Notes under the pieces: generated by a model
Database searches by the model: none
What the model was told of the DNA's origin: nothing
The model's input: only the letters and a program-made list of their open reading frames with translations
Shown here: positions 18,596 through 19,379 of the stretch, piece after piece
How the letters are laid out: every line of letters begins with the position of its first letter
How positions within the stretch are numbered: position 1 is the first letter of the stretch
Position numbers and translations under genes: made by a program
Virus record (IMG/VR): IMGVR_UViG_2526164598_000015
DNA: 39,465 bases
Source: a virus
Lineage: Duplodnaviria; Heunggongvirae; Uroviricota; Caudoviricetes
Strand: one strand, 5' to 3'

Positions 18596-18991
18596 ATGAT
18601 GGAAAAAACAGAAAACAAACCGATTGTAATTGGTGCTGATGCTGCTCCGTTTAAGTTTGAGTTGTCTCAACTGGTGGAGATGCGTATCAGTGATGAATGG
18701 GGTGAGGTTAAAGCCCGTGCGCAGTATGCGGATGGCGAAAACCAGTACTTGATCCACTACAAAGCAGCTGATGGTCGCGCCACGACGGAGTGGTTTGGTG
18801 AGTCAATGCTGGAAGCAACAGAAGATGATCGTCATCCGGGTTGTCCGGTATTTGCCGGTATGAAATTACCGGAAGGTGCAGTTGAACTGCAGCCGGGTGA
18901 GGTGTTCGTAATGACAGACATCATTGATGGTAAACCGCAGTATTCGCGTATTGAAATGAATAGTAAGAGTGCTCGCCTGATTCGTGAGTAA
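18596..18991 (+). CDS. Hypothetical protein (131 aa), moron candidate between lysis genes and cos
   Basis: ATG 18596 with AGGAGACG RBS; acidic soluble protein; followed by a 14-bp-stem hairpin. Confidence 0.55.
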   Translation: MMEKTENKPIVIGADAAPFKFELSQLVEMRISDEWGEVKARAQYADGENQYLIHYKAADGRATTEWFGESMLEATEDDRHPGCPVFAGMKLPEGAVELQPGEVFVMTDIIDGKPQYSRIEMNSKSARLIRE

Positions 18992-19379
18992 CAGGCATTA
19001 CAGCAGCCCTTCACTCTAAGGGGTTGCTGTAATGTGAGAAATAAAAAACCGGTCACAGGGAGCAGCTACACAGAAGCGGCCGGCGAAGACCGCCAATACC
19101 ACCCATGCATTGATGCAACATACTAATGACAATAGCCGCTATTGATGTAAATGCAATGTTATGCATCGACGAAAATAAAAAACCGGCAGGGGAAATCCAT
19201 TGAAGATTTGCCGGTGGCAAAAGAGGGCCATGTTTTTAACCTTAGTCGCAGAGTTACGGAGTGCAACTACGAATGCTGCCGGTATATGGCTGAATGGCGT
19301 TTCAATGATGTACGTCATCTTATCTGTAAATGTTAATGACAAACGCTCTCATTTGTGCGGGTCCTTCCGGTGGGGTGGC

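What the first reader, a model, noticed from the sequence alone, without database searches (positions are those of the whole stretch)
18596..19034. Unknown 131-aa protein followed by a 14-bp-stem hairpin lacking a U-tract
The ORF between the lysis genes and cos (the bor-like moron position in lambda) has no recognisable motif. It is followed by CATTACAGCAGCCC-(11 nt)-GGGTTGCTGTAATG (18996-19034), whose single G-U wobble makes it more stable in the plus-strand transcript. That points to an RNA processing or stability element rather than a classical terminator.
Basis: seen in the sequence. Interest (0 to 1): 0.4.

Follow-up and report, generated by a model that had tools for sequence, protein, structure and literature searches.

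The report
Conserved hairpin at phage lysis–packaging junction
The small unknown gene is an optional accessory gene of an E. coli lambda-like prophage, but the hairpin behind it is a separate, almost invariant 40-base stem-loop found at the same spot, between the lysis genes and the DNA-packaging genes, in hundreds of otherwise differently built prophages, where it most likely acts on the late messenger RNA and marks the point where gene modules are swapped.

Summary

The hairpin does not belong to the ORF. The same 38-40-nt stem-loop was found in 169 loci from E. coli, Salmonella (Fels-1) and Citrobacter prophages, and in about 313 of 5426 complete E. coli genomes. It always lies after the lysis genes and before cos and the terminase. 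The flanks diverge right at the stem edges: at least 8 upstream and 12 downstream sequence types, three lysis cassette types, at least three packaging types. The ORF is present in 90 loci and absent in 79.

The stem is conserved and the apical loop varies in sequence and length. A fixed U.G and several C-to-U changes favour the sense strand. No compensatory double changes were seen. There is no Rfam family and I found no paper on it.

Best reading: a non-terminating intercistronic RNA stem-loop (stability or processing) in the late transcript, which also serves as a recombination joint. The mechanism is inferred, not shown.

The parts
18599..18991 (+). Accessory late-operon ORF, 130 aa (131 aa if started at the ATG at 18596). 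SH3-like beta-barrel core at residues about 16-73, plus a beta-rich C-terminal extension found only in the 'long form'.
18588..18592 (+). Shine-Dalgarno AGGAG of the ORF, 6 nt before the ATG at 18599.
   Evidence: Read directly from the sequence.
18995..19035 (+). Conserved junction stem-loop. In the window: 17 bp with a 7-nt loop. Family consensus: GCATTA-CA-GCAGCCCTTC-NNN-GAGGGGCTGC-GA-TAATG.
   Evidence: Fold: -26.8 kcal/mol, z -5.8. 169 loci and 37 variants. Pair counts. Covariance model R1 scores 52.5 bits on the plus strand and 39.7 on the minus strand, with a single copy in the window. No Rfam match.
19039..19186 (.). Optional 134-nt module bounded by the direct repeat AAATAAAAAACCGG (19039-19052 and 19173-19186). 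It is absent in phi458, cdtI and L010-type loci, where the hairpin abuts the second repeat copy.
   Evidence: Repeat D4. Comparison of loci.
19173..19215 (-). Intrinsic-terminator-like hairpin on the minus strand: ACCGGCA...TGCCGGT followed by UUUUUUAUUU. It lies immediately next to the junction hairpin in the short-form loci.
   Evidence: Minus-strand fold -24.6 kcal/mol, z -3.96. Sequence. Not followed up.
19388..19399 (+). Probable cosN cohesive-end sequence GGGCGGGAGCGT (lambda has GGGCGGCGACCT). Many mosaic breakpoints fall at 19404/19405.
   Evidence: Sequence. The phage Tritos record starts at this base and the mEp460_4F5 record 5 nt earlier. Breakpoints. The lambda cos sequence is from my own knowledge. 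Inferred, not tested.
18270..18425 (+). Upstream neighbour: a small lipoprotein gene (lipobox LVGC; phrog_7528). In phages without the 130-aa ORF the hairpin follows this gene's stop codon by 7 nt.

Best explanation
Two independent things sit side by side.

(1) The ORF. It is an optional accessory gene of the Q-dependent late operon of an E. coli lambdoid prophage (phiP27-type lysis cassette, lambda/mEp460-type cos and terminase). It encodes a small SH3-like beta-barrel protein of unknown function and has its own Shine-Dalgarno. No promoter of its own was found, so it is most likely read from the late transcript.

(2) The hairpin. It is a discrete, sequence-conserved 38-40-nt stem-loop cassette that marks the boundary between the lysis/accessory segment and the cos/packaging segment in a large set of E. 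coli, Salmonella and Citrobacter lambdoid prophages.

Proposed mechanism (inferred):
- The cassette is transcribed in the sense direction as part of the antiterminated late mRNA. There it folds into a very stable stem-loop (-19 to -30 kcal/mol) that does not terminate transcription.
- It acts after transcription as an intercistronic stability or processing determinant. It could be a barrier to 3'-to-5' exonucleases and/or a site for a double-strand-specific nuclease. Either way the lysis/accessory message and the packaging/head message would decay independently.
- At the DNA level, the roughly 40 bp of near-invariant homology, flanked by unrelated sequence, is where lysis and packaging modules, and extra genes such as this ORF, are exchanged by homologous recombination.

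Shown here: existence, conservation, fixed position, combinatorial flanks, absence of a U-tract, and the greater stability of the sense strand.
Inferred: that the RNA is the active form, what it does, and that crossovers occur within it.
For: - Structure and significance: 17 bp, -26.8 kcal/mol, z -5.8.
- Conservation: 169 loci and 37 variants, with an invariant or near-invariant stem and an apical loop that varies in sequence and length (3, 5 or 7 nt). The loop variants keep or extend pairing.
- A change of 2 nt in arm spacing is neutral for a hairpin but awkward for a dimeric DNA-binding protein.
- Strand: U.G at alignment columns 16-26 in 35 of 36 variants. One-sided C-to-U changes give G.U at five further stem positions. 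33 of 37 variants fold better as plus-strand RNA, typically by 2.7 to 7 kcal/mol. R1 scores 52.5 bits on plus and 39.7 on minus.
- Position: always after the lysis genes and before cos and the terminase, in the direction of late transcription, in all ten annotated loci. It lies 3-7 nt after a stop codon and, in several contexts, 12-25 nt before the next start codon.
- No U-tract in about 11 of 12 downstream contexts.
- Independence from neighbours: at least 8 upstream and 12 downstream sequence types that diverge at the stem edges. Every combination of three lysis types, ORF present or absent, and at least three packaging types occurs.
- Recombination role: locus L111 has two copies flanking an extra 177-aa ORF together with a remnant of the long-form ORF 3' end. 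L137 has a joint inside the hairpin.
Against: - No compensatory (two-sided) substitutions support the RNA structure. There is one such cell in 627, no better than the shuffles. Conservation is therefore at the sequence level and could equally reflect a DNA function or recent spread by recombination.
- The strand argument is modest. The common C.A mismatch at columns 7-35 would be a U.G wobble on the minus strand. Among transitions at paired positions only about 6 of 8 preserve plus-strand pairing, which is not significant.
- Both scans fixed one arm of the hairpin, so the sampling of variants is biased.
- At 15-17 bp the stem is shorter than the roughly two helical turns usual for efficient RNase III substrates (established knowledge, not tested here).
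- No transcript data of any kind were available. No paper mentions the element.
Confidence: 0.45

Rival explanations
1. Pure DNA-level linker. The palindrome has no RNA function. It persists because about 40 bp of shared sequence at a module boundary lets lambdoid phages swap lysis and packaging modules by homologous recombination (Red/RecET-type systems need only about 30-50 bp). Its palindromic nature adds recombination or template-switch activity.
For: - Flanks diverge exactly at the stem edges, and all module combinations occur.
- Conservation is of sequence, with no compensatory changes.
- Loop variants include reverse-complement pairs (AGT/ACT, GTG/CAC), as expected from loop inversion in a DNA palindrome.
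- The GA-to-TG change that perfects the window's stem looks like a templated quasi-palindrome correction (inference).
- L111 and L137 show joints at or within hairpins.
Against: - Homology alone does not require a hairpin. It does not explain why the stem stays paired while the loop drifts.
- It does not explain why the 2x2 internal mismatch and the U.G wobble are retained rather than corrected (29 and 35 of 37 variants).
- A neutral linker should decay. This one is nearly invariant between E. coli, Salmonella Fels-1 and Citrobacter.
- This rival is compatible with the main explanation rather than exclusive of it.
Confidence: 0.28
2. Transcription terminator or insulator. The hairpin stops RNA polymerase that has not been modified by Q (for example transcription from accessory genes in the lysogen) from running into the packaging and head genes.
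For: - The upper stem is G+C-rich (GCAGCCC/GGGCTGC).
- The position is at the end of the lysis/accessory segment.
- One downstream context (L047, L100) begins TTTTTGGTTTTTGG.
Against: - There is no U-tract in the window or in about 11 of 12 downstream contexts. The tail is A-rich here, and the terminator scan does not call it.
- In L010-type loci a canonical terminator lies 25 nt upstream, which would make a second one redundant.
- In phiP27-type loci the next late gene's ribosome-binding site follows at once.
Confidence: 0.08
3. Protein-binding DNA site belonging to the packaging apparatus. The hairpin would be a cos accessory site such as cosQ or cosB, or a site for a terminase, an HNH protein or a host factor.
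For: It always lies on the virion right-end side of cos, 50-450 nt upstream of the probable cosN. An inverted repeat is typical of sites bound by dimeric proteins.
Against: - The distance to cosN varies about ninefold, with whole modules or a gene (phiP27 L34) in between.
- It occurs with at least three unrelated small-terminase types.
- Arm spacing varies by 2-4 bp between variants.
Confidence: 0.07
4. Chance or decaying relic. The hairpin would be the leftover terminator stem of an ancestral accessory gene, with no present function.
For: No function has been demonstrated and there is no covariation. A few degenerate copies exist (L111 second copy, L138, L141).
Against: The 34 stem positions are near-invariant across 169 loci and three genera, while the adjacent sequence is unalignable. 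The element occurs 448 times in 313 E. coli genomes.
Confidence: 0.05

Closest known systems
PeSL (promoter-early stem-loop) cassettes of T4-type phages (Arbiol et al. 2010, PMC2839356)
   Same: Both are short conserved intergenic cassettes built around a stem-loop. Both lie at the borders of exchangeable, mostly unknown-function genes. Recombination between PeSL copies shuffles modules (abstract).
   Different: PeSLs combine a strong sigma-70-like promoter with a stem-loop that terminates transcription, and they occur many times per genome. The element here has no promoter and no U-tract. It is single-copy in the window and sits at one fixed junction.
Conserved boundary ('linker') sequences between modules of lambdoid phages (modular theory of Susskind and Botstein; boundary sequences reported for HK620/Sf6-type comparisons) - recalled from my own knowledge, not checked in a paper here
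   Same: A short shared sequence at a gene-module boundary, flanked by unrelated modules, proposed as a site of homologous exchange.
   Different: Those sequences are not defined by a strong hairpin. This one is a 15-17-bp stem-loop with strand-asymmetric wobbles and a hypervariable apical loop.
Intercistronic mRNA-stabilising stem-loops (for example REP elements in malEFG) and phage RNase III processing hairpins (T7 R1.1; lambda sib) - established knowledge
   Same: A stable sense-strand hairpin between cistrons of a polycistronic mRNA, with no terminator function. The family consensus has an internal loop below a 10-bp upper stem, which loosely recalls R1.1-type sites.
   Different: No sequence relation to REP or to any Rfam family. 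The stem is shorter than typical RNase III substrates, and the window copy lacks the internal loop. No cleavage or stabilisation has been shown.
HspQ/YccV-like SH3 barrel (PDB 5ycq) and YdhK/DUF1541 (PDB 4mdw, 4fib), for the protein
Lambda bor and other accessory genes ('morons') between Rz and cos
   Same: Same genomic slot. The gene is present in some relatives and absent in others with the same flanks.
   Different: There is no similarity to Bor (no Pfam hit). The gene is on the late-transcript strand, whereas lambda bor is on the opposite strand (my own knowledge). No promoter or terminator of its own was found.

Membership tests
Intrinsic (Rho-independent) terminator | G+C-rich stem-loop | tested here: met
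   17-bp stem, -26.8 kcal/mol.
Intrinsic (Rho-independent) terminator | Run of U immediately 3' of the stem | tested here: not met
   The tail is UGAGAAAUAAAAAA. The terminator scan does not call it. Only 1 of about 12 downstream contexts is T-rich.
Intrinsic (Rho-independent) terminator | Lies at the end of a transcription unit | tested here: not met
   In phiP27-type and Fels-1-like contexts the next late gene's ribosome-binding site or ATG follows within 12-25 nt.
RNase III processing site (T7 R1.1 / lambda sib type) | About two helical turns (around 20 bp) of double-stranded RNA, often interrupted by an internal loop | tested here: inconclusive
   17 bp in the window. The consensus has a 5-bp lower stem, a 2x2 internal loop and a 10-bp upper stem. 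This is shorter than typical substrates.
RNase III processing site (T7 R1.1 / lambda sib type) | Cleavage by RNase III in vitro or in vivo | not testable with these tools
   No transcript or cleavage data were available.
Intercistronic mRNA stabiliser (3'-exonuclease barrier) | Stable hairpin on the sense strand between cistrons of one operon | tested here: met
   Same orientation as the late genes in all annotated loci. The plus strand is more stable in 33 of 37 variants.
Intercistronic mRNA stabiliser (3'-exonuclease barrier) | Upstream mRNA segment accumulates with a 3' end at the hairpin | not testable with these tools
   Needs Northern blots, 3' RACE or Term-seq.
Any curated RNA family (Rfam 15) | Score at or above the family's gathering threshold | tested here: not met
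   No hit at the hairpin at gathering threshold. Only chance-level microRNA hits at E 0.3-5.
PeSL-type mobile regulatory cassette | Conserved cassette at module borders with unrelated flanks | tested here: met
   At least 8 upstream and 12 downstream flank types. Combinatorial modules.
PeSL-type mobile regulatory cassette | Contains a sigma-70-like promoter and a terminating stem-loop | tested here: not met
   No promoter-like site near the hairpin and no U-tract.
PeSL-type mobile regulatory cassette | Many copies per genome flanking mobile ORFs | tested here: not met
   One copy in the 39-kb window. Only L111 of 169 loci has two copies, and these flank a 177-aa ORF.
cos accessory site (cosQ/cosB-like) | Fixed distance from cosN and co-variation with the terminase type | tested here: not met
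   The distance is about 50 to 450 nt. The element occurs with DUF1441-type, L007-type and phiP27 (HNH + L35/L36)-type packaging genes.
Moron (self-contained accessory gene), for the ORF | Present in some genomes and absent in close relatives at the same place | tested here: met
   90 of 169 hairpin loci have it. phiSTEC1575-Stx2k has the same lipoprotein gene and hairpin without it.
Moron (self-contained accessory gene), for the ORF | Own promoter and own terminator | tested here: not met
   No plus-strand promoter-like site in 18425-18595. The hairpin is neither a terminator nor specific to the ORF.
YccV/HspQ-like domain (PF08755), for the protein | Fold: five-stranded SH3-like barrel superposable on HspQ | tested here: met
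YccV/HspQ-like domain (PF08755), for the protein | Sequence-profile match to the family | tested here: not met
   No Pfam family at E<=1 for the window protein, and none for ten distant relatives at E<=0.1.
Lambda Bor lipoprotein | Sequence match and lipoprotein signal | tested here: not met
   No Pfam hit. There is no signal peptide or lipobox in the N-terminus MEKTENKPIVIGADAAPF (by eye).

The most novel reading that the evidence does not exclude
The stem-loop is a previously undescribed functional RNA element shared by a large group of enterobacterial lambdoid phages. Under this reading a sequence-specific hairpin in the late transcript is recognised by a host or phage factor and sets the relative expression or lifetime of the lysis and packaging messages. 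Because every phage must keep it, it also acts as the universal crossover point through which lysis cassettes, accessory genes and packaging systems are reassorted. That would make it a concrete, testable example of the 'linker' postulated by the modular theory of phage evolution.
Probability: 0.25. Interest if true: 0.65.

Novelty: new variant of a known kind. Interest (0 to 1): 0.45.

Why it matters
- If the hairpin works as proposed, it gives a defined 40-nt handle on two open questions in lambdoid phage biology. One is how the very long late transcript is partitioned so that lysis proteins and virion proteins are made in different amounts. The other is where and why mosaic joints form.
- The element is unannotated in every genome record examined. 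It is present in about 6% of complete E. coli genomes, including ETEC and Stx- or Cdt-converting phages (phiP27, phiSTEC1575-Stx2k, cdtI). It could therefore also serve as a marker for the lysis/packaging boundary in prophage annotation.
- The protein adds a widespread small SH3-like domain family without a Pfam entry: 721 clusters at 50% identity, many of them stand-alone proteins of about 60 aa.

Tried and rejected
- Rfam, at gathering threshold on the whole window and at permissive E-values on the window and on the phiP27 copy: nothing but chance microRNA-like hits.
- Covariation test on 37 variants: no compensatory changes, and the structure is no better than shuffles on every covariation measure. 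I therefore do not claim covariation support.
- Scan of species-representative genomes with a pattern left degenerate at the internal-loop positions: only Citrobacter braakii was a true hit. The other four were chance palindromes in unrelated phyla. No variant with a changed 5' 'CA' turned up.
- E. coli K-12 DLP12 lysis-to-nohD region, fetched in the hope of using K-12 transcript maps: no copy.
- First AlphaFold model from 27 close homologues: pLDDT 51, unusable. A deeper 83-sequence alignment gave a usable core.
- AFDB50 fold library: unavailable. BFVD: only unnamed small phage proteins.
- Profile search against PDB sequences: only a weak YdhK hit, E 0.043.
- Literature: the exact 13-mer occurs in no held paper. 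Three keyword searches found nothing on such a hairpin.
- Rejected readings: terminator (no U-tract), cos subsite (variable distance, several terminase types), dimeric operator (variable arm spacing), and a coding explanation (the flanks on both sides are unrelated between loci, so no ORF can be conserved across the element).

Full report
**1. Setting**

The window is an E. coli lambdoid prophage.
- Upstream of the finding lie three tRNA genes (16223-16472), two holin genes and an M15 endolysin (16906-17994), and small membrane and lipoprotein genes (18128-18425).
- Downstream lie a 582-nt non-coding stretch, a DUF1441-type small terminase (19574-20068) and a large terminase (20068-22176).
- The lysis side is 98% identical to Stx2e phage phiP27. 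The cos/terminase side matches mEp460 and phi458-type phages.
- A lambda-like cohesive-end sequence, GGGCGGGAGCGT, lies at 19388-19399. The record of phage Tritos begins at exactly that base. The comparison with lambda's cos is from my own knowledge.

**2. Check of the observation**

- The ORF runs from tandem ATGs at 18596 and 18599 to TAA at 18989-18991. RefSeq calls it from the second ATG (130 aa, hypothetical). That start fits the AGGAG at 18588-18592 better.
- The inverted repeat is exactly as described. As RNA it forms 17 bp (18995-19011 with 19019-19035) and a 7-nt loop. dG is -26.8 kcal/mol and z is -5.8 against dinucleotide shuffles. The minus strand gives -20.1 kcal/mol.
- No U-tract follows, and the terminator scan does not call it.

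**3. The protein**

- Databases: there is no Pfam or NCBIfam family. PHROGs places it in phrog_1935, function unknown.
- Homologues: these are unnamed proteins of E. coli, Shigella, Salmonella and Yersinia.
- Two forms: a 'short form' of about 98-115 aa (as in phiP27 L33) and a 'long form' with about 35 extra C-terminal residues (as in the window). The nucleotide match to phiP27 stops inside the gene at 18884.
- Wider family: an exhaustive profile search shows that the conserved part is a 57-aa domain (residues about 16-73). It is present in 721 clusters at 50% identity, many of them stand-alone proteins of 57-66 aa. Ten distant members have no Pfam family either.
- Structure: with an 83-sequence alignment, AlphaFold gives pLDDT above 90 for residues 20-70, a five-stranded barrel with a 3-10 turn before the last strand.
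- Genomic context elsewhere: a Yersinia homologue sits in a P2-like prophage between the small terminase gene (gpM) and the head-completion gene (gpL). The domain therefore recurs as a small insert in phage late operons.
- Conclusion: this is a real gene for an SH3-like accessory protein, not a known structural gene. The fold alone does not reveal its function.

**4. The hairpin is a family, and it is not tied to the ORF**

BLAST with 86 nt around the hairpin found it in phiP27, cdtI, phi458, phiSTEC1575-Stx2k, Salmonella phage Fels-1 and several hundred E. coli chromosomes.

Two scans of IMG/VR, each fixing one arm only, together with the annotated loci, gave 169 loci with 37 distinct variants.

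The consensus is GCATTA-CA-GCAGCCCTTC-NNN-GAGGGGCTGC-GA-TAATG. It has these features:
- a 5-bp lower stem;
- a 2x2 internal loop (C.A and A.G);
- a 10-bp upper stem containing a U.G;
- an apical loop that varies in sequence and length (AGT, ACT, AGC, ACA, AAA, AAT; GTG or CAC with an extra A-U pair; 5- and 7-nt loops).

The window's variant (14 loci) has TG instead of GA in the 3' arm. This closes the internal loop. It also carries an extra G.U.

The consensus sequence occurs at 448 places in 313 of 5426 complete E. coli genomes, up to 6 per genome, and is never annotated. Among species-representative genomes only Citrobacter braakii had it. K-12 DLP12 lacks it. The window holds a single copy.

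**5. Position and flanks**

In every annotated locus the element lies after the lysis genes and before the small terminase, in the orientation of late transcription.

The conserved block equals the hairpin itself. Sequence identity starts at the G before CATTAC and ends at the G after TAAT. Outside it there are at least 8 unrelated upstream and at least 12 unrelated downstream sequence types.

A tblastn matrix shows that all combinations occur of:
- three lysis types (M15 endolysin plus lipoprotein; Rz-type; GH108 endolysin);
- the ORF present or absent (90 versus 79 loci);
- several packaging types (DUF1441; L007-type small terminase; phiP27 HNH type).

Examples of different contexts:
- In phiSTEC1575-Stx2k the hairpin starts 7 nt after the stop codon of the lipoprotein gene that corresponds to window 18270-18425. 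Relative to that phage, the window's 130-aa ORF and its 170-nt leader are an insertion.
- In L010-type loci a canonical bidirectional terminator lies 25 nt upstream of the hairpin.
- In phiP27 the Shine-Dalgarno of L34 (a putative HNH gene just before cos) follows 12 nt after the hairpin.

The distance to the probable cosN ranges from about 50 nt (L145, L151, L152) to about 450 nt, with optional modules in between. The window has a 134-nt module bounded by the direct repeat AAATAAAAAACCGG.

**6. Which strand, and RNA or DNA?**

For the plus strand:
- The U.G at alignment columns 16-26 is present in 35 of 36 variants.
- One-sided C-to-U changes create G.U at columns 2, 13, 14, 18 and 30.
- 33 of 37 variants fold better as plus-strand RNA.
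- The covariance model scores 52.5 bits on the plus strand and 39.7 on the minus strand.

Against over-reading this:
- The frequent C.A at columns 7-35 would be a wobble on the minus strand.
- Only one cell in 627 shows a two-sided change, and no covariation measure exceeds the shuffles.
- Each scan fixed one arm, which biases the sample.

Variable arm spacing argues for a hairpin (RNA or extruded DNA) rather than a site for a dimeric protein. Reverse-complement loop pairs (AGT/ACT, GTG/CAC) and the GA-to-TG 'correction' are the sort of changes DNA palindromes undergo (inference).

**7. Mechanism proposed**

The most economical reading has three parts.
- The element is transcribed within the Q-antiterminated late mRNA and does not terminate it.
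- Its very stable stem-loop acts after transcription, either as a barrier to 3' exonucleases or as a processing site. This would separate the fate of the lysis/accessory message from that of the packaging and head message.
- The consensus geometry (10-bp upper stem over an internal loop) loosely recalls T7 R1.1-type RNase III sites. The stem is short for RNase III, however, and the window copy lacks the internal loop. I therefore rank 'stability barrier' above 'RNase III site'.

Because every phage of this group keeps the same 40 bp, the element is also the natural crossover point for exchange of modules and accessory genes. Two loci illustrate this:
- L111 carries two copies flanking a 177-aa ORF, plus a remnant of the long-form ORF 3' end.
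- L137 has a joint inside the hairpin.

All of this section is inference. No transcript ends, cleavage or crossovers were observed.

**8. Comparison with known systems**

- The closest described concept is the PeSL cassette of T4-type phages: a promoter plus terminating stem-loop that mediates modular shuffling (PMC2839356). The element here shares the border position and the stem-loop. It lacks the promoter, the terminator function and the multi-copy distribution.
- It fits the older idea of conserved boundary sequences between lambdoid modules (my own knowledge), but it is defined by a strong, asymmetric hairpin.
- It is not an intrinsic terminator, a cos subsite, a REP element or any Rfam family.

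**9. Verdict**

- The ORF is an ordinary, optional phage accessory gene with an SH3-like fold and unknown function.
- The hairpin is the more interesting half. It is real, highly conserved, unannotated and apparently undescribed, and it sits at a fixed mosaic junction.

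Noticed in passing
window 19173-19215 (minus strand): A good intrinsic-terminator-like hairpin on the minus strand (ACCGGCA...UGCCGGU followed by UUUUUUAUUU; -24.6 kcal/mol, z -3.96). It implies a leftward transcript ending here, yet no gene is annotated between it and cos. In phi458, cdtI and L010-type loci it lies 7-10 nt from the junction hairpin. It could end a small antisense or accessory RNA.
   Followed up: no
window 19039-19052 and 19173-19186: An exact 14-nt direct repeat, AAATAAAAAACCGG, bounds a 134-nt module. The module is present in the window, phiSTEC1575-Stx2k, L007 and L008, and absent in phi458, cdtI and L010. It looks like an insertion or deletion by recombination between the repeats.
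   Followed up: partly
window 18291-18316 (+): An 11-bp stem followed by TTTTTTATT, scored as terminator-like. It lies inside the signal-peptide coding part of the small lipoprotein gene (18270-18425...ALVAILVPFLLVGC...). It could be coincidence or an internal attenuator upstream of the 130-aa ORF.
   Followed up: no
window 19388-19405: A probable lambda-like cosN, GGGCGGGAGCGT. Many loci share sequence with the window up to 19404/19405 and then diverge, including phiSTEC1575-Stx2k, whose packaging genes are annotated differently. The cos cut site itself may therefore be another mosaic joint.
   Followed up: partly
window 18884 (inside the ORF): The nucleotide match to phiP27 (98%) ends inside the ORF. 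The last roughly 35 codons (ELQPGEVFVMTDIIDGKPQYSRIEMNSKSARLIRE) are an extension absent from the short form, and PHROGs treats them as a separate 42-aa family, phrog_8025. The gene itself is mosaic.
   Followed up: partly
L111 982-1853: The only locus with two hairpin copies: a canonical one, then a 177-aa ORF of unknown function, then a remnant of the long-form ORF 3' end, then a degenerate second hairpin. This is a cassette-like insertion between hairpins.
   Followed up: partly
L175 4001-4252 (Yersinia frederiksenii): An 83-aa homologue of the SH3-like domain sits in a P2-like prophage between the small-terminase gene gpM and the head-completion gene gpL. The domain therefore also occurs as a small insert in an unrelated phage type's late operon.
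   Followed up: no
window 4415-4466 (-), 11806-11980 (+), 16223-16472 (+): The prophage also carries a DicF small RNA, a hok/sok-type sok antitoxin RNA, and three tRNA genes just upstream of the holins. ARAGORN calls the first tRNA Met (CAT anticodon), whereas RefSeq annotates the identical gene as tRNA-Ile.
   Followed up: no
window 18128-18425: Where Rz/Rz1 would lie in lambda, this phiP27-type lysis cassette has only a 37-aa membrane protein and a 51-aa lipoprotein (phrog_7528, unknown). Neither matches a spanin family. Whether they act as spanins was not examined.
   Followed up: no
phage record PP818812.1 (Actinobacillus phage vB_Apl-pPE4), 20237-20564: A phage listed with Actinobacillus pleuropneumoniae as host shares 89-97% nucleotide identity with this E. 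coli prophage region, including the 5' half of the hairpin. That is unexpected for a Pasteurellaceae phage. It could reflect a mis-assigned host or contamination.
   Followed up: no
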